Source: Escherichia coli
GTDB lineage: Bacteria > Pseudomonadota > Gammaproteobacteria > Enterobacterales > Enterobacteriaceae
NCBI RefSeq assembly: GCF_044324785.1
Contig: NZ_CP172127.1
Strand: one strand, 5' to 3'
Length of the DNA stretch: 64,000 nt
A model generated the notes under the pieces. That model was not told the DNA's origin. It did no database searches and worked only from the letters and a program-made list of their open reading frames with translations. Positions 400-62,913 of this stretch are shown here, piece by piece. The translations under genes were made by a program, and so were the position numbers. The first letter of the stretch is position 1. Each line of letters begins with the position of its first letter.

Positions 400-560
400 T
401 TCTCTTACCCTCACCCTAACCCTCTCCCAAAGGGAGAGGGGACCGATCGGCGTGGTATCCAGGTGCCGTGTCGGTTTGCAACTTCGCTCGGTGGGAAAGT
501 ATGCACCGCCTTTCTCCCTCGCCCCTCTGGGGAGAGGGCCGGGGTGAGGGGAACACAACA
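400..560. repeat. GC-rich composite palindromic intergenic repeat (two inverted copies of a ~35 bp hairpin unit)
   Basis: ccctcaccc-taa-ccctctccc-aaa-gggagaggg at 408-440 and its near-identical inverse complement ...ggagagggccggggtgaggg at 531-550. Confidence 0.6.
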
Positions 561-574
561 CGAAGAGTTTAACT

Positions 575-7188: not shown

Positions 7189-7683
7189 TTATGAACAACT
7201 GTCCATGATTTCGTTTAAGAATGAAGAGAAATCACTAAACGAACTGAATATATTTTCGGTGCCAATATTATCTCTAATTTCAAAAAAGTTACTTTTAATG
7301 TCATAAGTAAATATTGAAATGCTATCATCACCGATCACTAACCGTTCTTGTAGATCAGGGTTTATGAAATCATCATTATTTCTATAAAATTCATTTACGG
7401 CAAAAAGGTTTTTAACTGAAGGTTCTGGAATCGAGAGGCTAAATAATCGTAATCCATTAGCTTCGAATCCATCCATTGCTCTTAAAAAAGTAAGATAATC
7501 AGGTTGATTCTTAAAAAGAATACTAACTTCATTACATAACTTCTCCAGGCAATTAGTTGAATTAGAATTAAATTCTATTTGGATTATACTTTCAATAAAT
7601 GATTCCTTGAGCGGTGCTTCAAATGGATGGTCTAAATCATTCATCATTTTTTTTAATTTATTTATTTGGGTTTTAGTCATCAT
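7189..7683 (-). CDS. candidate immunity protein for the upstream Hcp-HNH effector (positional equivalent of yrhA)
   Basis: 164 aa acidic ORF, start ATGATGA-overlapped with yhhZ stop (translational coupling), AT-rich codon usage. Confidence 0.6.
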   Translation of the reverse strand: MMTKTQINKLKKMMNDLDHPFEAPLKESFIESIIQIEFNSNSTNCLEKLCNEVSILFKNQPDYLTFLRAMDGFEANGLRLFSLSIPEPSVKNLFAVNEFYRNNDDFINPDLQERLVIGDDSISIFTYDIKSNFFEIRDNIGTENIFSSFSDFSSFLNEIMDSCS

Positions 7684-9703: not shown

Positions 9704-9797
9704 GCGATCAGGAAGACCCTCGCGGAGAACCTGAAAGCACGACATTGCTCACATTGCTTCCAGTATTACTTAGCCAGCCGGGTGCTGGCTTTTTTTT
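9704..9797 (+). ncRNA. ryhB: RyhB iron-responsive small RNA
   Basis: gcgatcaggaagaccctcgcggagaacctgaaagcacgacattgctcacattgcttccagtattacttagccagccgggtgctggcttttttttt matches RyhB as I recall it, with terminator hairpin plus T-run. Confidence 0.92.
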
Positions 9798-13659: not shown

Positions 13660-15000
13660 GTGACTACATTAACGCTTGTTTTAACAGCAGTAGGGTCTGT
13701 TTTACTGCTGCTGTTTTTAGTCATGAAGGCGCGTATGCACGCTTTCCTGGCTTTGATGGTGGTGTCCATGGGGGCTGGCCTTTTTTCCGGTATGCCGCTC
13801 GATAAAATCGCAGCGACGATGGAAAAAGGGATGGGAGGCACCCTCGGCTTTCTGGCGGTGGTTGTCGCCCTGGGAGCCATGTTTGGCAAGATCTTACATG
13901 AAACCGGCGCAGTCGATCAGATTGCCGTCAAAATGCTCAAATCCTTCGGTCACAGCCGCGCGCATTATGCCATCGGCCTTGCGGGGCTGGTCTGTGCGCT
14001 GCCGTTGTTCTTTGAAGTGGCGATTGTTCTGCTGATTAGCGTTGCTTTCTCAATGGCGCGCCACACCGGTACGAACCTGGTGAAGCTGGTAATCCCATTA
14101 TTCGCAGGCGTGGCGGCAGCGGCTGCGTTCCTGGTGCCGGGGCCTGCGCCAATGCTGCTGGCATCGCAGATGAACGCCGACTTTGGCTGGATGATCCTGA
14201 TTGGCCTGTGTGCGGCAATTCCGGGAATGATTATTGCCGGGCCGCTGTGGGGTAATTTCATCAGCCGCTACGTGGAGTTGCATATTCCTGACGACATCAG
14301 CGAACCACATCTCGGTGAAGGCAAAATGCCGTCCTTCGGATTCAGCCTGTCGCTGATCCTGTTGCCACTGGTGCTGGTGGGGCTGAAAACCATTGCCGCG
14401 CGCTTTGTGCCGGAAGGCTCTACCGCTTACGAATGGTTCGAGTTTATTGGTCATCCGTTTACCGCGATTCTGGTTGCTTGTCTGGTAGCAATTTATGGCC
14501 TGGCAATGCGTCAGGGTATGCCAAAAGACAAAGTGATGGAAATTTGTGGTCACGCGCTGCAACCGGCGGGGATCATTCTGCTGGTGATTGGTGCAGGCGG
14601 CGTGTTCAAACAGGTGCTGGTTGACTCTGGCGTAGGTCCGGCACTGGGCGAAGCGTTAACCGGCATGGGCCTGCCGATTGCCATCACCTGCTTCGTGCTG
14701 GCAGCTGCAGTGCGCATCATTCAGGGTTCTGCCACCGTTGCCTGTTTAACGGCGGTGGGACTGGTGATGCCGGTTATTGAACAACTGAACTATTCCGGAG
14801 CGCAAATGGCGGCGCTGTCGATTTGTATCGCCGGTGGTTCGATTGTTGTCAGCCACGTTAACGACGCCGGTTTCTGGTTGTTCGGTAAATTTACCGGCGC
14901 GACTGAAGCCGAAACACTGAAAACCTGGACCATGATGGAAACCATCCTCGGCACTGTCGGTGCTATCGTTGGGATGATTGCGTTCCAACTGTTGAGTTAA
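13660..15000 (+). CDS. gntU: low-affinity gluconate:H+ symporter
   Basis: 446 aa GntP-family permease; GTG start 3 bp after gntK stop. Confidence 0.88.
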   Translation: MTTLTLVLTAVGSVLLLLFLVMKARMHAFLALMVVSMGAGLFSGMPLDKIAATMEKGMGGTLGFLAVVVALGAMFGKILHETGAVDQIAVKMLKSFGHSRAHYAIGLAGLVCALPLFFEVAIVLLISVAFSMARHTGTNLVKLVIPLFAGVAAAAAFLVPGPAPMLLASQMNADFGWMILIGLCAAIPGMIIAGPLWGNFISRYVELHIPDDISEPHLGEGKMPSFGFSLSLILLPLVLVGLKTIAARFVPEGSTAYEWFEFIGHPFTAILVACLVAIYGLAMRQGMPKDKVMEICGHALQPAGIILLVIGAGGVFKQVLVDSGVGPALGEALTGMGLPIAITCFVLAAAVRIIQGSATVACLTAVGLVMPVIEQLNYSGAQMAALSICIAGGSIVVSHVNDAGFWLFGKFTGATEAETLKTWTMMETILGTVGAIVGMIAFQLLS

Positions 15001-15012
15001 TTACTGCGACAA

Positions 15013-15038
15013 ATTACTGCGAGCTTGCTCGCAGTAAT
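15013..15038 (+). terminator. gntU terminator hairpin
   Basis: attactgcgagc-tt-gctcgcagtaat palindrome followed by T-rich tract; preceded by a direct copy ttactgcga. Confidence 0.6.
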
Positions 15039-15139
15039 TCATTTCTCTTTTCTCCTGTCTTCATCTTTTTGATCTCTCTCGCAAATTTACCTGCTAATAA
15101 TCCGTTCTAATCACTGCCTAAAGATCGCAGGAGATAAAG

Positions 15140-17236
15140 ATGGAAAAGCACGGAGCTGAATTGCTTTTACAGCGGATGTTAGGAAATACCACCGCTACTT
15201 TCAGGGAAGGGCAATGGGAAGCCATAGATGCAGTGGTTAATCAGCGGCGAAAACTGCTGGTTGTACAGCGCACCGGCTGGGGGAAAAGTGCCGTGTACTT
15301 CATCGCCAGTAAAATCTTCCGAGATCGCGGCGCTGGCCCGACAATTATCATCTCTCCTTTGCTTGCCCTGATGCGTAACCAGGTTGCCGCCGCTGAACGG
15401 TTAGGTATTACGGCTGAAACGTTGAATTCTACAAACAGGGAAGAATGGCAGCGCATTAGCGATAAGTTGCTGCAAGGTGAGGTCGATTGCTTGCTGGTTT
15501 CCCCGGAACGATTGGCAAACCAGGACTTTATCGAAACGGTTTTATATCCTATAGCCGATCGTATTGGCTTGCTTGTGGTCGACGAGGCGCACTGCATCTC
15601 TGATTGGGGCCACGATTTTCGCCCGGATTACCGACGTATATTAGATATTTTGCGCCAACTGCCTGCGAATACCCCTGTTCTGGGTACAACCGCGACAGCG
15701 AATAACCGTGTTGTTGAGGATATCCGTCAGCAATTGGGTGACATTGTGATTCAGCGTGGAACGCTGGCTCGCGAAAGTTTGGCGCTTGATGCCTTAGTCT
15801 TAGGAGAACAGTCATCCCGTCTGGCATGGTTAGCAACGGTTATCCCTCAGTTTTCCAAATCGGGAATTGTTTATACCCTGACGACTCGCGATGCTGAACT
15901 TGTCGCCGAGTGGTTAAGGAAAAATGGTATCAGTGCATTTGCTTACTACAGCGGCGTGACTTGTGAAGGCGCGGAAGATTCTAATACTGCCAGGGAATAT
16001 CTGGAGCAGGCACTGCTGGCAAATAAAATCAAAGTGCTGGTCGCGACGACGGCATTAGGTATGGGGTTTGATAAACCTGATTTAGGTTTCGTCATTCATT
16101 ATCAGATGCCGGGGTCTATTGTCGGTTACTACCAACAGGTGGGGCGTGCCGGTCGTGCTATAGATTCCGCAGTTGGCATATTGCTTTGTGGTGGTGAAGA
16201 CCGCGCTATTCATCAATTCTTCCGTGAAAGCGCCTTTCCTGCGGAGGCGCAAATTCATGAAATACTCAACGTACTTAGCGAGAATGACGGTCTTACCCTA
16301 CGAGGCATTGAACAACGGACGAATCTTCGTTATGGGCAAATAGAAAAAGCACTGAAATTATTGGTAGCGGAAAATCCATCGCCTGTGGTGTATACCGAGA
16401 AATTATGGCGCAGAACTATCGTCAGTTTTTCTCCTGATCATGAACGAATTAACCATTTGATGAATCAGAGAAAAAGTGAGCTGGCAGACGTTGAAAGCTA
16501 TATCACGACCAAGGAGTGCAAAATGCAATTTCTGCGCCGTGCACTCGATGAGCCAAGTGCCGAACGTTGTGGTAAATGTAGCAGTTGTCTTCAGCATCCG
16601 TTATTGTCGCCCGACATTGATAGCGGCTTACTCCATGCGGCAAATTTATTTATTAAACACGCTGACCTGCCGTTAAATCTCAATAAACAGGTGGCAGCTG
16701 GGGCTTTTACGCAATACGGATTTAAAGGGAACTTGCCTGCGGGTTTACAAGGATCTACGGGGCGAATCCTTTCTCGTTGGGGAGATTCCGGGTGGGGAAA
16801 GCAGGTAGCACAGGAGAAAAAAACGGGGCGCTTCAGTGATGAGCTGGTAGAAGCATGTGCGGAAATGGTTCGCCAACGCTGGAATCCGCATCCTGAACCA
16901 ACCTGGGTATGCTGCGTTCCTTCATTAAGGCACCTCGACCTGGTTCCTGATTTTGCCCGGCGACTGGCGGCGAAACTTGGCTTACCTTTTATTGATGCCA
17001 TTGAAAAAGTCGTGGACAATCCACCGCAGAAAATGCAGCAAAACCGTTTTCACCAGTGTCAAAATCTCGACGGGGCGTTTGTGATTACCCCTCCTTTGAT
17101 GCCAGGTCCGGCGTTGCTGGTTGACGATATCGTGGATTCTGCATGGACGCTGACAGTTCTGACAGCACTGTTACGCCAGGCAGGTTGCCCGACGGTTTAT
17201 CCTCTTGCCCTTGCTTCTACCTCGGTAAAAAATTGA
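15140..17236 (+). CDS. RecQ-family DNA helicase fused to a C-terminal ComF-like phosphoribosyltransferase (PRTase) domain
   Basis: 698 aa; FREGQ motif 0, Walker A TGWGKS, DEAHCISDWGHDFRPDY, ATTALGMGFDKPD, QQVGRAGR, Cys cluster CK..CGKCSSC; C-terminal ...NLDGAFVIT...ALLVDDIVDSAWT aligns with ComF/GntX PRTase fold; good SD aggag upstream. Confidence 0.85.
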   Translation: MEKHGAELLLQRMLGNTTATFREGQWEAIDAVVNQRRKLLVVQRTGWGKSAVYFIASKIFRDRGAGPTIIISPLLALMRNQVAAAERLGITAETLNSTNREEWQRISDKLLQGEVDCLLVSPERLANQDFIETVLYPIADRIGLLVVDEAHCISDWGHDFRPDYRRILDILRQLPANTPVLGTTATANNRVVEDIRQQLGDIVIQRGTLARESLALDALVLGEQSSRLAWLATVIPQFSKSGIVYTLTTRDAELVAEWLRKNGISAFAYYSGVTCEGAEDSNTAREYLEQALLANKIKVLVATTALGMGFDKPDLGFVIHYQMPGSIVGYYQQVGRAGRAIDSAVGILLCGGEDRAIHQFFRESAFPAEAQIHEILNVLSENDGLTLRGIEQRTNLRYGQIEKALKLLVAENPSPVVYTEKLWRRTIVSFSPDHERINHLMNQRKSELADVESYITTKECKMQFLRRALDEPSAERCGKCSSCLQHPLLSPDIDSGLLHAANLFIKHADLPLNLNKQVAAGAFTQYGFKGNLPAGLQGSTGRILSRWGDSGWGKQVAQEKKTGRFSDELVEACAEMVRQRWNPHPEPTWVCCVPSLRHLDLVPDFARRLAAKLGLPFIDAIEKVVDNPPQKMQQNRFHQCQNLDGAFVITPPLMPGPALLVDDIVDSAWTLTVLTALLRQAGCPTVYPLALASTSVKN

Positions 17237-18438
17237 TGAATCTTTCAGCCAATGCACAAGCGACTCTCCTGCTAACCAGCGATTTTTCTCGCGCGGCGGC
17301 GAGTGAGTATAAACCTCTTAGTAATAGTGAATGGGGGAAGTTTGCATTATGGCTGAAGCACCAACGTATCAGTCCCGCCGATCTTCTGGTACCGCAACCG
17401 CAAGAGAAACTTACAGGCTGGAGCGATCCGCGTATTTCTCAGGAGCGTATTCTTGGCTTGCTGGCGCGTGGTCATAGTCTGGCGTTGGCGGTAGATAAGT
17501 GGCAACGCGCCGGATTATGGATCTTAACCCGCGGAGATGCCGATTATCCCGTTCGCTTGAAAAACCGATTGCGAACGGATGCTCCTCCCGTTTTATTTGG
17601 CTGCGGGAATAAAGCATTATTGCAAGCGGAAGGTATGGCGATTGTTGGCTCGCGAGATGCTCCGACTGACGATTTGCGCTATACCCAACAACTGGCAGCG
17701 AAACTGGCCCAACAGGGGATTTGCGTTATCTCTGGTGGTGCGCGAGGTATTGATGAATGTGCAATGGCGTCGGCACTGGAGGCCGGGGGAACTGCCGTTG
17801 GCGTATTAGCTGATAGCTTGTTAAAAACGAGCACGTTAGTGAAATGGCGTGAAGGGCTTATAGCAGGCAACCTGGTGTTGATTTCACCGTTTTACCCAGA
17901 GGTACGTTTCACTGTCGGCAATGCGATGGCGCGGAATAAATATATTTATTGCCTTGCTGAAAGCGCAATGGTTGTACGTGCGGGAATGACCGGTGGAACG
18001 ATAACCGGAGCGATGGAGGCGTTAAAACATCAGTGGCTGCCTGTTCTGGTTAAACCAAATCAGGATGTGCAATCAGCCAATTCACGATTAGTAGAAAATG
18101 GGGCGTCATGGAGTGCTGAACAGGCTGAGAATGTGACGATCAGACTGCCAGATGTTCCTGGGCTGATGTATGACAGAGCACTCCGTAACGCTCAACCAGA
18201 ATTGTTTTCGCTGCTCGAAGATGACGCAAATTACGCAGTAATGCCCGCGCATACCCCTGTCGATTTTTATCAACTCTTTGTGGCGGAACTGGCGATCCTT
18301 GCAAAGGAATCGATAAGTATTGAAAGGCTGGCGTCTTGTACTGGTTTAACCATCGAACAAATTAGTGTGTGGCTGAACCGCGCAGAAGAAGAGGGAAGGG
18401 TTATCCGATTGGGCGAAGGTCATTATCAGTTCAGGTAA
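17236..18438 (+). CDS. DprA/Smf-like DNA-processing protein paralogue
   Basis: 400 aa from MNLSANAQ; YPVRLKNRLRTDAPPVLFGCGN, IVGSRDAPTDDLRYTQQLAAKLAQQGICVISGGARGIDECAMASALEAGG Rossmann DprA core, C-terminal winged-helix-like tail; start shares 1 nt with the helicase stop (TGATG). Confidence 0.8.
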   Translation: MNLSANAQATLLLTSDFSRAAASEYKPLSNSEWGKFALWLKHQRISPADLLVPQPQEKLTGWSDPRISQERILGLLARGHSLALAVDKWQRAGLWILTRGDADYPVRLKNRLRTDAPPVLFGCGNKALLQAEGMAIVGSRDAPTDDLRYTQQLAAKLAQQGICVISGGARGIDECAMASALEAGGTAVGVLADSLLKTSTLVKWREGLIAGNLVLISPFYPEVRFTVGNAMARNKYIYCLAESAMVVRAGMTGGTITGAMEALKHQWLPVLVKPNQDVQSANSRLVENGASWSAEQAENVTIRLPDVPGLMYDRALRNAQPELFSLLEDDANYAVMPAHTPVDFYQLFVAELAILAKESISIERLASCTGLTIEQISVWLNRAEEEGRVIRLGEGHYQFR

Positions 18439-18440
18439 TA

Positions 18441-18478
18441 AAACAGGTGCCGCGTCTGGTTGTGTGCAGCACCTGTTT
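18441..18478 (-). terminator. yhgN terminator hairpin
   Basis: aaacaggtgc ... gcacctgttt 10-bp inverted repeat, T-run on minus strand. Confidence 0.55.
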
Positions 18479-18483
18479 GAACC

Positions 18484-30128: not shown

Positions 30129-31646
30129 ATGGAAAGAATAATGCAAAACAGAAAATGGATTTTGACCTCGCTGGTAATGACTTTTTTCGGCATCCCCATT
30201 CTGGCGCAGTTTTTGGCGGCGGTTATTGCCATGCTGGGGGCCGGGCTTGCCGCTATTCTTGAGTTTTGCAATTTACTCTTTACGCCAACAATTTATCTTC
30301 TACTCAACGTCTTTATGCTGACGCTGGGCGCATTACTGCTATTTTTCTCTGGGCGAGTGTGGGCGGGCGATAACGCACCAGAAAACAGAGAAATAGCCGC
30401 CTGGCGACAATGTCTTTTTTTAGTTCCCGCTTTATTAACCCTGGTTGGCTGGATAATCACGCTACATCTGGCAGATTATCAATTTCGCCAGATGGTTTCA
30501 GGTTGGTTGGCAGATCTTATGCTTCCCTGGCTGGGTGTTTTGTTAGTCTCATTAGTCGGTGGTGAGTACTGGTGGATAGTCATTATTCCCGTTGGAACGC
30601 ATATCATTTTTTCGCTGGGATACGGCTGGCCGACAAGGCATCCTTTAACCGGCACGTCCGGGCTACGTTGCCGTAACTTACTCCTGTTTCTACTTCTCTT
30701 ACTTGGTATTGTCGCTGGGTATCAGGCCCATTTATATAAGCAGCATAACCCTGGTGTTGGTGTACGCGAAAATATTGATATCTGGGCCTGGCGACCCGAT
30801 AAACTCAATAATCGACTGACGCCGCTGCGTGGCAAACCGCAAATTCAGTTTACGCAAAACTGGCCGCGAATCGATGGTGCCACGGCGGCGTACCCAATTT
30901 ATGCTTCTGCCTTTTATGCGTTAAGCATAATACCAGAGGATTTTCACGTTTGGGATTATCTGGATAACTCTCGTACGCCAGAAGCATATAACAAAATCGT
31001 TAAGGGCGATGCTGATATTATTTTCGTGGCGCAACCTTCCGGTGGGCAGAAAAAACGTGCAAAGGAATCTGGTGTCACTTTGCTGTACACCCCCTTTGCT
31101 CGTGAAGCATTTGTTTTTATCGTCAATGCTGATAATCCAGTCAATTCCCTGACTGAACAACAAGTGCGAGACATTTTTAGTGGCGCAATTACCAACTGGC
31201 GTACTGTGGGCGGTAACGATCAGGAGATCCAGACCTGGCAACGCCCGGAAGACTCTGGCAGTCAGACGGTGATGCAATTACAGGTCATGAAAAATGTCCG
31301 TATGATCTCGCCGCAGGAAACCGAAGTGGCAAGTGTGATGGAGGGAATGATTAAAGTCGTTGCCGAATACCGTAATACAAACAACGCAATAGGTTATACC
31401 TTCCGCTATTACGCAACACAAATGAATGCCGATAAGAATATCAAATTGTTAGCGATTAACGGTATTGCACCGACTGCGGAAAACATTCGCAATGGCAAAT
31501 ATCCCTATATCGTCGATGCCTTTATGGTAACGCGGGAAAATATGACGTCAGAAACACAAAAACTGGTTGAATGGTTTTTAACGCCGCAGGGGCAGAGTTT
31601 GGTAGAAGACGTGGGTTATGTGCCGATGTATAAAACGTTGCATTAA
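30129..31646 (+). CDS. membrane-anchored PstS-like (phosphate-binding-protein fold) substrate-binding domain protein
   Basis: 505 aa; about 200 aa N-terminal multi-TM region then PBP domain (AAYPIYASAFYAL, DIIFVAQPSGG, NPVNSLTEQQVRDIFSGAITNW, SGSQ); I recall only a short remnant (yzgL) at this position in K-12. Confidence 0.7.
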   Translation: MERIMQNRKWILTSLVMTFFGIPILAQFLAAVIAMLGAGLAAILEFCNLLFTPTIYLLLNVFMLTLGALLLFFSGRVWAGDNAPENREIAAWRQCLFLVPALLTLVGWIITLHLADYQFRQMVSGWLADLMLPWLGVLLVSLVGGEYWWIVIIPVGTHIIFSLGYGWPTRHPLTGTSGLRCRNLLLFLLLLLGIVAGYQAHLYKQHNPGVGVRENIDIWAWRPDKLNNRLTPLRGKPQIQFTQNWPRIDGATAAYPIYASAFYALSIIPEDFHVWDYLDNSRTPEAYNKIVKGDADIIFVAQPSGGQKKRAKESGVTLLYTPFAREAFVFIVNADNPVNSLTEQQVRDIFSGAITNWRTVGGNDQEIQTWQRPEDSGSQTVMQLQVMKNVRMISPQETEVASVMEGMIKVVAEYRNTNNAIGYTFRYYATQMNADKNIKLLAINGIAPTAENIRNGKYPYIVDAFMVTRENMTSETQKLVEWFLTPQGQSLVEDVGYVPMYKTLH

Positions 31647-31748
31647 GCAGGATTACAATATGGATATCATTAATATTTTCCTGAACGCGGCGAATGCCCT
31701 TTTTATCTATCAGCCGTTTATGCACGATCAGCGGGCGAGGGGGTAATT

Positions 31749-32516
31749 ATGCAACCCAGCCCCGCCATGCAGGCATTAATTGAGCAGGTTTATCATATTT
31801 TTCGTCGTTATCCGGTGCCGCAGCAATTTGTTGTTTGTTGTGAATATTGCCTGAGTCAACAGGAACAAAAAGCATTACGGAATACATCGTTGCGAGCGAT
31901 TCCTTATTCCTTAATCAATGCCTGGAATAGTAGTCCAGGACCTGATCCGCAAAACAGCGATGAGGTTCGTTATTTTCTGCCGCGTTTACTGGAATTTGTT
32001 GCACAGGGGCAGTTTGACAATATTCACGAAGTATTTTCTCTACGGCGTATAAACCTTGCCAGTAAAGAAAACTGGCGTGAGGATGAACGGGAAATTTTGC
32101 AACGATTTGCTTGCCAGTATATGACTGATTGGGTATCCGGCGATGAAATTGTCGAATTACAGTACATGCTGGAAATGTTTTTCCGTGCCGATATCGCTCT
32201 TTCGCCATTGCTTGATGCCATTATTTCAGTTCCCGGCTTTTGGTCGGCAGCGTCTCTTGCCTGTTTATTGAATACGTATCGTGACGGTTATATCAGAGAT
32301 AACCAGGACGATATCGATAAAGCCATTACCACTCAAACTAATACTTGGGCTAGTAATAATCAATCCATCCTGAAAGAACGCGCGCGGCAGGCGATTGAGA
32401 ACCCACTTAAGCAGCCCGAACAGGGCACACAGTATCAGATCTGGGAAGACGACTGGATGATTGATGAGTGTTTATGCGCGATGTATGACGCATCATCCGA
32501 ATCACCAGGAAAATAA
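31749..32516 (+). CDS. hypothetical cytoplasmic protein
   Basis: 255 aa ORF, no domain recognised by eye; tightly linked to the next gene. Confidence 0.55.
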   Translation: MQPSPAMQALIEQVYHIFRRYPVPQQFVVCCEYCLSQQEQKALRNTSLRAIPYSLINAWNSSPGPDPQNSDEVRYFLPRLLEFVAQGQFDNIHEVFSLRRINLASKENWREDEREILQRFACQYMTDWVSGDEIVELQYMLEMFFRADIALSPLLDAIISVPGFWSAASLACLLNTYRDGYIRDNQDDIDKAITTQTNTWASNNQSILKERARQAIENPLKQPEQGTQYQIWEDDWMIDECLCAMYDASSESPGK

Positions 32517-32518
32517 AA

Positions 32519-33124
32519 ATGATTAAATTCCGGCTTTATATTCCCCCTGTAATTCTCGGTTTTGTTATCGTGCCAGTATTGGTATGGCCGACGGTTATTG
32601 TCTTAGCCGTACTTATATTCATGTTAACTTTTCTGGCAGAAATAACATTCTCCTTTCCGCTCCTGGTTGTGCGTATTTCTCTTCAGGAATTACAACTTGA
32701 GTTAATGGTTGAATATGCATTTTTTTTCAGTGTAATGTGGGGCATCGGTTGGCAATTCTCCCGCAGAACGCCTCCTGAATTAAAAAACAGACTGCATTGC
32801 TGGCTGGTCTTTTCTCCGGCCTATTTCTGGTTAATTCTCTCGAATTTCATTCTTTATATTACTCCAGAGAAATCAGCGTTGCTGGAAAATATCCGAAACT
32901 TCTTTCTGACGTTTGTCTGGCTTCCCCTGAATTTTTCCCCTTTTTGGCCGCAGCCGTGGACTGATTTTGTCGGCCCGATTAGTGCACAGCTTGGTTTTGC
33001 ATTGGGATATTATTGCCAGTGGTGTAGCAAAAATAGAAGCCAGGGGCAGAAGTGGGTTGAGTGGGGAACGTGCTTAAGTTTGGCGATTTTAGCTCAGGGG
33101 CCGTTATTCAATTATTTACAATGA
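32519..33124 (+). CDS. hypothetical small membrane protein
   Basis: 201 aa, several hydrophobic helices, low GC, starts 2 bp after previous stop. Confidence 0.55.
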   Translation: MIKFRLYIPPVILGFVIVPVLVWPTVIVLAVLIFMLTFLAEITFSFPLLVVRISLQELQLELMVEYAFFFSVMWGIGWQFSRRTPPELKNRLHCWLVFSPAYFWLILSNFILYITPEKSALLENIRNFFLTFVWLPLNFSPFWPQPWTDFVGPISAQLGFALGYYCQWCSKNRSQGQKWVEWGTCLSLAILAQGPLFNYLQ

Positions 33125-33177
33125 ATAGTCTAAGGAATCCAAATAGCCCGGTTGCACTTCACAACCGGGCATCATCC

Positions 33178-51063: not shown

Positions 51064-52555
<1,492 letters not shown>

Positions 52556-62097: not shown

Positions 62098-62127
62098 AAA
62101 CGGGAGGCGAAGGTGCCTCCCGTTTTA
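62098..62127. terminator. bidirectional terminator after envZ, overlapping antitoxin stop
   Basis: cgggaggc-gaaggt-gcctcccg followed by tttt. Confidence 0.7.
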
Positions 62128-62421
62128 GATTGTTTTCAATTGATTGATAATGAAAGGATTCGCTTGCAAAAGCAGGAGCAATTTTCGGGGTGCTCCGGTA
62201 GGTTGACGGCGTTTGGTTTCCCAGCTTTTGACCAGGTCATAACTTACCCCTACGGCGACAGCAAAATCTTGCTGACGTAAACCCGTTGCTTCACGGATCG
62301 CTTTTACATCGATCTCGCTATAAGTATGGACGTGCTCTGGTTCAGGCGTTTCTTCACCCTTTTCGATGCGTACCATTTCTTCTGCGCTGGCAAGAAGATC
62401 AGCAAATAATTCGTCTTTCAT
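62125..62421 (-). CDS. HTH (XRE-type) antitoxin, HigA-like
   Basis: 98 aa, helix-turn-helix LRQQDFAVAVGVSYDLVKSWE, downstream of toxin. Confidence 0.7.
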   Translation of the reverse strand: MKDELFADLLASAEEMVRIEKGEETPEPEHVHTYSEIDVKAIREATGLRQQDFAVAVGVSYDLVKSWETKRRQPTGAPRKLLLLLQANPFIINQLKTI

Positions 62422-62479
62422 CTGTTTTCAATGCCTCCGTTGGCATTTCGGCCATGGTGGAATTTGTGGAGCTTCAACA

Positions 62480-62797
62480 TTAAAGCAGCTTCTCGGACAA
62501 TAGTTTCAATGCCTTTCTTTGTTCTTCTGTTAAATCATCCTGTTCATTTTTAGGATAAATCAACGCCAGATAAATTCGGCCATTGCGTGTTACGTTGTAA
62601 TAAATTATCCGAATGCCACCCCGTTTCCCCATTCCAGAACGGTTCCAGCGAATTTTTCTAAAACTGCCTGTGCCTGCGATAATGTCACCGGCAGTGGGAT
62701 CTTGAATGAGTAGTTCCTGAAAAGCCCGGAACTCATCATCAGGTAACAATAACTGGCGGCGTTTGCTAAATCCTTGTAGTTCAATAAACGTGAACAT
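62480..62797 (-). CDS. RelE/ParE-superfamily toxin, HigB-like
   Basis: 105 aa basic protein ...GIRIIYYNVTRNGRIYLALIYPKNEQ; toxin-first arrangement. Confidence 0.65.
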   Translation of the reverse strand: MFTFIELQGFSKRRQLLLPDDEFRAFQELLIQDPTAGDIIAGTGSFRKIRWNRSGMGKRGGIRIIYYNVTRNGRIYLALIYPKNEQDDLTEEQRKALKLLSEKLL

Positions 62798-62829
62798 AAT
62801 GCATCCTGCGGTCTATTGATAATTATAAG

Positions 62830-62842
62830 TGTACCGTGTACA
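62830..62842. promoter_or_regulatory. inverted repeat TGTAC-N3-GTACA in TA promoter (candidate autoregulatory operator)
   Basis: read directly, 33-45 bp upstream of toxin start. Confidence 0.4.
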
Positions 62843-62863
62843 TATTGGTAGCTAATTAGATAT

Positions 62864-62894
62864 AAAAAAACCCCTTATCCGTTTGGATAAGGGG
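62864..62894 (-). terminator. pckA rho-independent terminator
   Basis: ccccttatcc-gttt-ggataagggg with 7-T run on minus strand. Confidence 0.75.
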
Positions 62895-62913
62895 GCAATG
62901 AGATTTCAGCTGA

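What the first reader, a model, noticed from the sequence alone, without database searches (positions are those of the whole stretch)
15041..18440. Accessory two-gene cassette: RecQ-like helicase fused to PRTase, plus DprA-like protein, between gntU and yhgN
As I recall, gntU and yhgN are adjacent and convergent in K-12; here about 3.4 kb lies between their terminators and carries two co-oriented, translationally coupled genes (stop/start TGATG at 17234-17238). Gene 1 (698 aa) has the full RecQ motif set (FREGQ, TGWGKS, DEAHCISDWGHDFRPDY, QQVGRAGR, Cys cluster) and ends in a ComF-like phosphoribosyltransferase fold. Gene 2 (400 aa) is a complete DprA/Smf paralogue. This is an accessory duplicate of the helicase + ComFC + DprA logic of transformation machinery, in a genome that already has core comF (gntX at 51064-51747) and dprA. 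A DprA-like + PRTase pair has, to my recollection, been reported as an anti-phage system; the helicase fusion here looks like an uncharacterised variant. There is no integrase, IS or tRNA nearby, consistent with a small defence islet at an indel hotspot.
Basis: partly seen in the sequence, partly recalled or inferred. Interest (0 to 1): 0.85.

Follow-up and report, generated by a model that had tools for sequence, protein, structure and literature searches.

The report
Known RqlHI/PsyrTA toxin-antitoxin cassette
The two genes between gntU and yhgN are the already described E. coli RqlH-RqlI (PsyrTA) pair, a RecQ-like helicase fused to a toxic phosphoribosyltransferase domain plus its DprA-like antidote; about 30% of complete E. 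coli genomes carry it, so this is a correct observation of a known system.

Summary
Two intact, overlapping genes (698 and 400 aa) fill a 3483-bp insert between gntU and yhgN that K-12 lacks.

The cassette is not an uncharacterised variant:
- PADLOC matches both proteins end to end to PsyrT (1067.8 bits) and PsyrA (665.7 bits).
- They are 99% identical to the CFT073 copies of RqlH/RqlI. Russell & Mulvey (2015) studied this 698/400-aa pair in ExPEC F11: the PRTase domain is genotoxic, D663A abolishes toxicity, and RqlI binds and neutralises RqlH.
- The helicase-PRTase fusion is the defining architecture of the family (M. smegmatis RqlH, 2012).

About 1641-1650 of 5426 complete E. coli genomes carry the cassette, all on the chromosome and, where checked, at this site. 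In 292 of them, mostly O157:H7, the toxin gene carries a 29-bp disrupting insertion.

Millman et al. (2022) cloned the orthologous 3485-bp insert from E. coli STEC 1299 and recorded no observed defence. Only the Bacillus homologue defended (54% and 32% identical). A native-host study of E. coli NILS69 was also negative.

Still open: the PRTase substrate, and whether the E. coli allele defends against anything.

Verdict: already known, low interest.

The parts
15012..15039 (+). Perfect 13-bp inverted repeat followed by a T-rich tail, just after the gntU stop (14998-15000). It is terminator-like and replaces the left part of the single shared hairpin in the K-12 spacer.
   Evidence: (I5)
15040..15139 (+). 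Upstream region of rqlH, with the Shine-Dalgarno AGGAG at 15129-15133, 6 nt before the ATG. The consensus scan found no sigma-70 promoter on this strand.
   Evidence: sequence read directly. This region is included in Millman's cloned SG127 insert.
15140..17236 (+). rqlH / psyrT, 698 aa: a RecQ-like helicase with a C-terminal PRTase toxin domain. DEAD covers aa 23-194, Helicase_C aa 239-340, the Cys/Zn cluster aa 443-484 and the PRTase region about aa 509-698.
   Evidence: PsyrT E=0, 1067.8 bits, aa 3-697 on profile 5-687/689; Pfam; recQ_fam 252.8 > 219.8; 689/698 identical to CFT073; literature
17120..17137 (+). PRPP-binding loop V661-D-D-I-V-D666 of the PRTase domain. D663 is the residue whose alanine substitution abolished toxicity in the F11 protein.
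   Evidence: sequence gttgacgatatcgtggat; aligned to the VDD(V/I)V loop of GntX and of an adenine PRTase; D663A
17236..18438 (+). rqlI / psyrA, 400 aa: the DprA-like (Rossmann/SLOG) antitoxin, with a possible C-terminal HTH. Its start overlaps the rqlH stop (TGATG), which suggests translational coupling.
   Evidence: PsyrA 6.3e-201, 1-400 on 1-397/398; DNA_processg_A aa 89-292, SLOG LDcluster4 aa 135-296, weak HTH aa 354-382; 394/400 identical to CFT073; 389/400 identical to the STEC 1299 PsyrA
18441..18478 (.). Inverted repeat (13-nt arms, 12-nt loop) between the rqlI stop (18436-18438) and the convergent yhgN stop (18484). It is probably a bidirectional terminator.
   Evidence: I15

Best explanation
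**Identity.** This is the chromosomal E. coli RqlH-RqlI system, also called PsyrTA, a large two-gene toxin-antitoxin module.

**The toxin.** RqlH/PsyrT is a RecQ-like 3'-5' DNA helicase. Its C-terminal phosphoribosyltransferase domain is genotoxic, causing SOS induction, filamentation and loss of viability. Toxicity depends on the PRPP-binding loop.

**The antitoxin.** RqlI/PsyrA is a DprA-like protein made from the same operon by coupled translation. It binds RqlH through the PRTase domain and keeps it harmless.

**What is shown.** For alleles 99% identical to this one: toxicity, neutralisation, physical interaction, the requirement for D663, and co-transcription (Russell & Mulvey 2015). For a homologue 41% identical: helicase activity (M. 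smegmatis RqlH).

**What is inferred.** By analogy with the Bacillus PsyrTA and with ShosTA, a trigger relieves RqlI inhibition. The trigger could be a phage product or aberrant DNA sensed by the helicase or the DprA-like module. The PRTase then disturbs nucleotide or DNA metabolism and stops replication of host and invader, an abortive-infection-like outcome.

**What is not shown.** Phage defence has not been demonstrated for the E. coli allele, and two tests were negative. The PRTase substrate is unknown.
For: - Full-length PADLOC matches to PsyrT (E=0, 1067.8 bits) and PsyrA (6.3e-201).
- 689/698 and 394/400 residues identical to the CFT073 proteins, and the same 698/400-aa sizes as the F11 RqlH/RqlI.
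- K49, D148 and D663 are conserved.
- Literature: the PRTase domain is genotoxic, D663A abolishes toxicity, RqlI co-immunoprecipitates with RqlH only when the PRTase domain is present, and the genes form an operon with rqlH upstream. PsyrTA = RqlHI is listed as a defence system with a DprA-like antitoxin and a PRTase toxin.
- Purifying selection on both genes: dN/dS 0.062 and 0.112 against CFT073.
- A diverged copy of the pair (61% identity) sits inside a type I restriction-modification operon on an E. coli IncF plasmid, which is a defence context for the family.
Against: - Millman et al. Table S2 lists the orthologous E. coli STEC 1299 insert as 'observed defense: x'. That insert is 3485 bp and starts at window position 15000. 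It is 98% nt identical over the first 400 nt, and its PsyrA is 97% identical. Only the Bacillus sp. FJAT-29814 system, 54% and 32% identical to the window proteins, is marked 'v'.
- In E. coli NILS69, neither PsyrTA deletion nor overexpression in K-12 gave detectable protection. Overexpression caused a growth defect.
- The PRTase assignment from sequence alone is weak here: Pfam 0.0087, best PDB match E 0.25, and an uninformative single-sequence structure model with pLDDT 40.8.
- As of September 2025, the ShosT PRTase was the only defence-associated PRTase with a characterised function.
Confidence: 0.9

Rival explanations
1. RqlH and RqlI act together in a beneficial DNA-maintenance or niche-fitness function, as in Russell & Mulvey's cooperative model. 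Phage defence is not the primary role of the E. coli allele, and the toxicity is a side effect of unbalancing the complex.
For: - Russell & Mulvey propose that the two proteins act cooperatively on bacterial DNA. rqlI mutants are defective in low oxygen and in mouse and zebrafish models, and rqlI is needed for gut colonisation by CFT073 and 536.
- Two phage assays of E. coli alleles were negative.
- Both genes are under purifying selection and dS is similar to that of the core flanks, which points to long vertical residence at one chromosomal site rather than island-like turnover. In the rows sampled, the site is either empty or holds this cassette.
Against: - The fitness defects of the rqlI mutant are rescued by deleting rqlH, so they reflect unleashed toxin rather than loss of a beneficial activity.
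- About 70% of E. coli, including K-12, lack the cassette.
- The O157:H7 lineage has lost rqlH function.
- A family member does defend, and a diverged pair is embedded in a restriction-modification operon.
Confidence: 0.25
2. The cassette is mainly a selfish addiction module. It persists because losing the antitoxin is lethal or costly, and it has no current benefit to the host.
For: - It behaves like a TA system.
- In O157:H7 the toxin gene is frameshifted while the antitoxin stays intact. The 29-bp insertion allele is in 292 genomes. This is the decay order expected of an addiction module.
- An ISEcp1-blaCTX-M-15 insertion in rqlH is tolerated in strain NRZ94505.
Against: - dN/dS of 0.06 on the 698-aa toxin between divergent lineages indicates selection on the whole protein, helicase included, not only on avoiding antitoxin loss.
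- A fixed chromosomal locus has no segregational loss for an addiction module to counter.
Confidence: 0.12
3. One reading: an accessory duplicate of the helicase + ComFC + DprA transformation machinery that acts in DNA uptake.
For: - The domains parallel ComFA/ComFC/DprA, as Russell & Mulvey also discuss.
- There is a local match of the PRTase loop to the window's own GntX.
- There is a strong DNA_processg_A domain.
Against: - RqlI fails the DprA equivalog cut-off (102.2 < 191.15). The C-terminal domain fails the ComF (11.3 < 233.55) and GntX (15.5 < 304) cut-offs.
- The helicase is RecQ-family, not ComFA-like.
- The pair behaves as toxin and antitoxin.
- None of the papers read reported a DNA-uptake phenotype.
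Confidence: 0.03

Closest known systems
RqlH-RqlI of extraintestinal pathogenic E. coli F11/CFT073/536 (Russell & Mulvey 2015, PMC4670107)
   Same: Same genes. Sizes are 698 and 400 aa, identity to the CFT073 copies is 99%, the gene order is the same, the CFT073 copy lies at the same gntU-yhgN locus, and the catalytic residues K49, D148 and D663 are conserved.
   Different: Only allelic differences: 9 and 6 amino-acid substitutions. The window strain belongs to a different lineage, and its best match is strain N3 at 99.9%.
PsyrTA (P. syringae TA pair, Sberro 2013; Bacillus sp. FJAT-29814 system verified as anti-phage, Millman 2022)
   Same: Same family by full-length profile matches. Same architecture: a RecQ-like helicase-PRTase toxin upstream of a DprA-like antitoxin.
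   Different: The verified Bacillus system is only 54% (PsyrT, N-terminal 400 aa) and 32% (PsyrA) identical. The E. coli orthologue tested in the same study showed no observed defence.
Mycobacterium smegmatis RqlH (Ordonez, Unciuleac & Shuman 2012)
   Same: A helicase-PRTase fusion that aligns over its full length at 41% identity to the F11 RqlH. [quoted passage not shown]
   Different: It has no RqlI partner, and its PRTase domain is dispensable for helicase activity.
ShosTA
   Same: A PRTase toxin with a DprA-like antitoxin. The toxin depends on PRPP binding and causes DNA damage and filamentation. The ShosA profile hits RqlI at 1.4e-27 over aa 85-272.
   Different: ShosT has no helicase domain and the gene order is reversed, with the antitoxin first. 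There was no ShosT profile match among the best 25 families listed for RqlH.
Competence proteins ComFA/ComFC(GntX)/DprA
   Same: The same three domain types: a helicase, a PRTase-like domain and a DprA Rossmann domain. The PRPP loop is similar to that of GntX.
   Different: The RqlH/RqlI proteins fall below every curated cut-off for these families, the helicase is a different class, and the pair shows toxin-antitoxin behaviour.

Membership tests
PsyrTA / RqlHI | Toxin matches the PsyrT profile over its full length | tested here: met
   PDLC03928 PsyrT, E=0, 1067.8 bits, aa 3-697 on profile 5-687/689
PsyrTA / RqlHI | Antitoxin matches the PsyrA profile over its full length | tested here: met
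   PDLC03927 PsyrA, 6.3e-201, aa 1-400 on profile 1-397/398
PsyrTA / RqlHI | Two adjacent co-oriented genes with the toxin upstream and the antitoxin start close to or overlapping the toxin stop | tested here: met
   TGATG overlap at 17234-17238; rqlH is always upstream in strains that have both genes.
PsyrTA / RqlHI | RecQ-family helicase core with Walker A Lys and DEAH Asp | tested here: met
   TIGR00614 recQ_fam 252.8 > cut-off 219.8. DEAD and Helicase_C. K49 and D148 are present.
PsyrTA / RqlHI | C-terminal PRTase domain with a PRPP-binding acidic loop (D663) | tested here: met
   The VDDIVD loop is at aa 661-666. Pfam Pribosyltran is weak at 0.0087. There is a local match to GntX at E 2e-5 and to an adenine PRTase at E 0.25. 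PGAP names the isolated 3' fragment 'ComF family protein'. The fold test by single-sequence AlphaFold was uninformative (pLDDT 40.8).
PsyrTA / RqlHI | RqlH is toxic alone and is neutralised by RqlI through direct binding | not testable with these tools
   Shown experimentally for the F11 allele. The window allele is 99% identical to the CFT073 copies.
PsyrTA as an anti-phage defence system | Protects against phage when expressed | not testable with these tools
   In the literature the result is positive for Bacillus sp. FJAT-29814 only. It is negative for E. coli STEC 1299 and E. coli NILS69.
Housekeeping RecQ | Reaches the RecQ equivalog cut-off | tested here: not met
   TIGR01389 296.3 < 640.2 and NF008279 225.4 < 1015. 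Pfam listed no HRDC domain.
DprA/Smf | Reaches the DprA equivalog cut-off | tested here: not met
   TIGR00732 102.2 < 191.15 and NF008007 80 < 495. Only the central Rossmann domain matches.
ComF/GntX | Reaches the ComF or GntX family cut-off | tested here: not met
   TIGR00201 11.3 < 233.55 and NF008616 15.5 < 304
ShosTA | ShosT and ShosA profile matches are the best hits | tested here: not met
   ShosA hits only partially and far below PsyrA (94.8 vs 665.7 bits). No ShosT match appears among the best 25 families listed.
Dpd (7-deazaguanine DNA modification) DpdF | Reaches the DpdF equivalog cut-off, with dpd neighbours | tested here: not met
   NF041063 148.9 < 550. The neighbours are gntU and yhgN. 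The PADLOC DpdF hits are all far below PsyrT.

The most novel reading that the evidence does not exclude
The chromosomal E. coli rqlHI allele may not be a phage-defence system in practice. Its helicase-tethered PRTase could carry out a still unknown PRPP-dependent reaction on DNA or on nucleobases at DNA, serving genome maintenance or niche fitness. Alternatively it could defend only against untested invaders such as particular coliphages, plasmids or incoming ssDNA. The evidence does not exclude either: two phage panels were negative, the PRTase substrate is unknown, and both genes are under purifying selection at a stable chromosomal site.
Probability: 0.3. Interest if true: 0.5.

Novelty: already known. 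Interest (0 to 1): 0.12.

Why it matters
As a discovery it matters little. The system has been named, modelled in PADLOC and DefenseFinder, and studied genetically in E. coli since 2015.

Three points are still useful:
- The anti-phage label attached to E. coli PsyrTA by prediction tools rests on a distant Bacillus homologue. The E. coli allele itself tested negative twice.
- A sizeable share of predicted PsyrTA systems carry a disrupted toxin gene. The O157-type 29-bp insertion is in 292 of about 1650 carriers, and in the one strain examined in detail the antitoxin is intact.
- The biochemical reaction of the helicase-linked PRTase remains unknown.

Each of these is a caveat for defence-system censuses that include E. 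coli PsyrTA.

Tried and rejected
- **Structure test.** A single-sequence AlphaFold2 model of RqlH residues 490-698 gave pLDDT 40.8. It is unusable, so I ran no fold search. I ran no further search on building an alignment, because it would not change the verdict.
- **PDB sequence search.** The C-terminal domain gave only marginal PRTase hits, E 0.25.
- **Promoter scan.** No sigma-70 match was found on the + strand upstream of rqlH, so the promoter remains unmapped.
- **Insertion mechanism.** I looked for target-site duplications and terminal repeats at the insert borders and found none beyond the two hairpins. The mechanism of insertion is unknown.
- **tRNA scan.** No tRNA genes in the whole window.
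- **Mobile carriage.** No phage carries a full-length homologue, only helicase-core hits. A few plasmids do.
- **Rejected identities.** Housekeeping RecQ, DprA, ComF/GntX, DpdF and ShosTA all fall below curated cut-offs or are far weaker than PsyrT/PsyrA.
- **Rejected 'indel hotspot'.** In the flank-spanning search every sampled unoccupied genome had the same 1991-1994-bp empty configuration, and only 12 extra match places exist among 5424 genomes.
Full report
**1. The observation**

The ORF list shows gene 1 at 15140..17236 (+, 698 aa). A second + strand ORF has a coupled start, the ATG inside TGATG at 17234-17238, which gives 17236..18438, 400 aa. A strong Shine-Dalgarno sequence (AGGAG, 15129-15133) precedes gene 1.

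Pfam finds DEAD (4.9e-25), Helicase_C (4.2e-13), a weak RecQ_Zn_bind (0.0014) and a weak Pribosyltran (0.0087, aa 605-683) in gene 1. In gene 2 it finds DNA_processg_A (3.9e-50, aa 89-292) overlapping a SLOG domain.

The flanks are gntR-gntK-gntU on the left and yhgN-asd-glgB on the right. A BLAST of the whole window against the matching K-12 region shows that 15001-18483 has no K-12 counterpart. In K-12 a 56-bp spacer with one hairpin separates gntU and yhgN. In the window that spacer is wholly replaced. The insert brings its own hairpins at 15012-15039 and 18441-18478, and there is no target-site duplication. The window has no tRNA.

**2. What it is**

PADLOC matches gene 1 to PsyrT (E=0, 1067.8 bits) and gene 2 to PsyrA (6.3e-201, 665.7 bits), each from end to end. 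PsyrTA is the same system as RqlHI.

Russell & Mulvey (2015) described RqlH (698 aa) and RqlI (400 aa) in ExPEC strain F11 and also worked with CFT073 and 536. The window proteins are 689/698 and 394/400 identical to the CFT073 copies, which lie between gntU and yhgN just as here. The residues that study mutated are all present: K49, D148, and D663 in the loop VDDIVD.

It was first described for M. smegmatis RqlH, a 3'-5' helicase 41% identical to the F11 protein.

**3. Rejected identities**

By curated cut-offs the proteins are not housekeeping RecQ, DprA, ComF/GntX or DpdF. Gene 1 does pass the RecQ-family subfamily cut-off.

The 'ComF-like' resemblance is a local one around the PRPP loop: 26% over 76 aa to the window's own GntX, E 2e-5. 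A single-sequence structure model was too poor to test the fold. The PRTase call therefore rests on the motif, the weak profile hits, PGAP's 'ComF family' label on an isolated 3' fragment, and the published D663A result.

**4. Distribution**

The cassette is present in 1650 of 5426 complete E. coli genomes, always on the chromosome. A flank-spanning query finds 1641 occupied sites. The other genomes sampled show the same 1991-1994-bp empty configuration, and only 12 extra match places exist overall. The site is therefore effectively either empty or occupied by this cassette, not a hotspot with varied cargo.

Against CFT073, dN/dS is 0.062 for rqlH and 0.112 for rqlI. Their dS values (0.10 and 0.064) are similar to those of gntU, yhgN and asd (0.13, 0.084, 0.046). 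GC3 is lower in the cassette (0.47 and 0.46) than in the flanks (0.58-0.62). This fits an old foreign acquisition that has since evolved with its flanks under purifying selection.

In O157:H7 86-24, rqlH is a pseudogene: a 1-bp deletion at the position equivalent to window 15655, plus a 29-bp insertion. rqlI is intact there. The 29-bp insertion allele is in 292 genomes. In strain NRZ94505 an ISEcp1-blaCTX-M-15 unit truncates rqlH.

Full-length homologues occur on 12 plasmids from bacteria and haloarchaea and on no phage. On an E. coli IncF plasmid a 61%-identical pair sits between hsdS and hsdR of a type I restriction-modification operon.

**5. Mechanism**

Shown in the literature for near-identical alleles:
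- RqlH alone induces SOS, filamentation and loss of viability.
- Deleting the PRTase domain, or the D663A substitution, removes that toxicity.
- RqlI counters the toxicity and co-immunoprecipitates with RqlH only when the PRTase domain is present.
- The two genes form an operon.

Inferred: by analogy with the Bacillus PsyrTA and with ShosTA, whose PRTase toxin needs PRPP binding and disrupts purine metabolism and DNA replication, a trigger releases the PRTase and halts replication of host and invader.

Not shown: the PRTase substrate. As of September 2025 only the ShosT PRTase had been characterised among the defence-associated PRTases.

**6. The phage-defence claim for this allele**

Millman et al. 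Table S2 lists construct SG127, 'PsyrTA', source E. coli STEC 1299, a 3485-bp insert that begins at window position 15000. It is 98% nt identical over the first 400 nt, and its PsyrA is 389/400 identical. Its entry reads 'observed defense: x'. SG128 from Bacillus sp. FJAT-29814 reads 'v'. The Bacillus proteins are 54% and 32% identical to the window's.

An independent study of E. coli NILS69 found no protection from PsyrTA, either by deletion in the native host or by expression in K-12. Expression in K-12 caused a growth defect.

Membership of the PsyrTA family is secure. A defence function for this allele is an inference.

**7. Verdict**

The cassette is accessory and belongs to a TA/defence family, but it is not an uncharacterised variant. 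Novelty: already known. Interest is low.

The points still open or worth noting are the unknown PRTase chemistry, the lack of a demonstrated defence phenotype for the E. coli allele, and the common disruption of the toxin gene in the O157 lineage.

Noticed in passing
window 62127-62912 (ORFs 62480..62797 and 62125..62421, both on the - strand): A 786-bp K-12-absent insert between envZ and pckA carries a small toxin-antitoxin-like pair. One ORF is a 105-aa RelE-family toxin-like protein (Pfam RelE 9.4e-6). The other is a 98-aa NadS-family HTH protein (NCBIfam NadS 76.8 > cut-off 60).
   Followed up: partly
window 30364-33177 (ORFs 30129..31646, 31749..32516, 32519..33124, all on the + strand): A 2.8-kb K-12-absent segment lies between glgP and glpD. 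It holds an intact 505-aa ORF whose 5' end corresponds to the K-12 pseudogene yzgL and whose C-terminal half resembles PstS-family binding proteins, though below the cut-off (121 < 206.6). Two further ORFs of 255 and 201 aa have no NCBIfam match.
   Followed up: partly
L005 (E. coli O157:H7 86-24), equivalent to window 15655 and 16926: In this O157:H7 strain rqlH is a pseudogene, with a 1-bp deletion plus a 29-bp insertion, while rqlI is intact. The 29-bp insertion allele is found in 292 complete genomes. Defence-system censuses that count PsyrTA in this lineage may be counting a dead toxin.
   Followed up: partly
L006 (E. coli NRZ94505), equivalent to about window 16650: An ISEcp1-blaCTX-M-15 transposition unit is inserted in rqlH. 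It leaves a 3' PRTase fragment that PGAP annotates as 'ComF family protein', followed by an intact rqlI.
   Followed up: no
L007 (E. coli IncFIA/IncFIC plasmid NZ_OX030731.1, 37352-40869): A diverged PsyrTA-like pair, whose helicase-PRTase is 60.7% identical to the window's, is inserted between hsdS and hsdR of a type I restriction-modification operon on a conjugative plasmid.
   Followed up: no
window 7294-7302: K-12 carries an IS1A insertion here, next to the tssD/yrhA-like genes, and the window lacks it. The two BLAST segments overlap by 9 bp, consistent with the IS1 target duplication in K-12.
   Followed up: no
window 9733-9797 (+): RyhB sRNA, Rfam RF00057, 83.1 bits. It is the only Rfam family match at gathering threshold in the window.
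   Followed up: no
window 401-574: A 174-bp stretch in the ugpB-ugpA intergenic region has no megablast match to K-12. I did not examine it.
   Followed up: no
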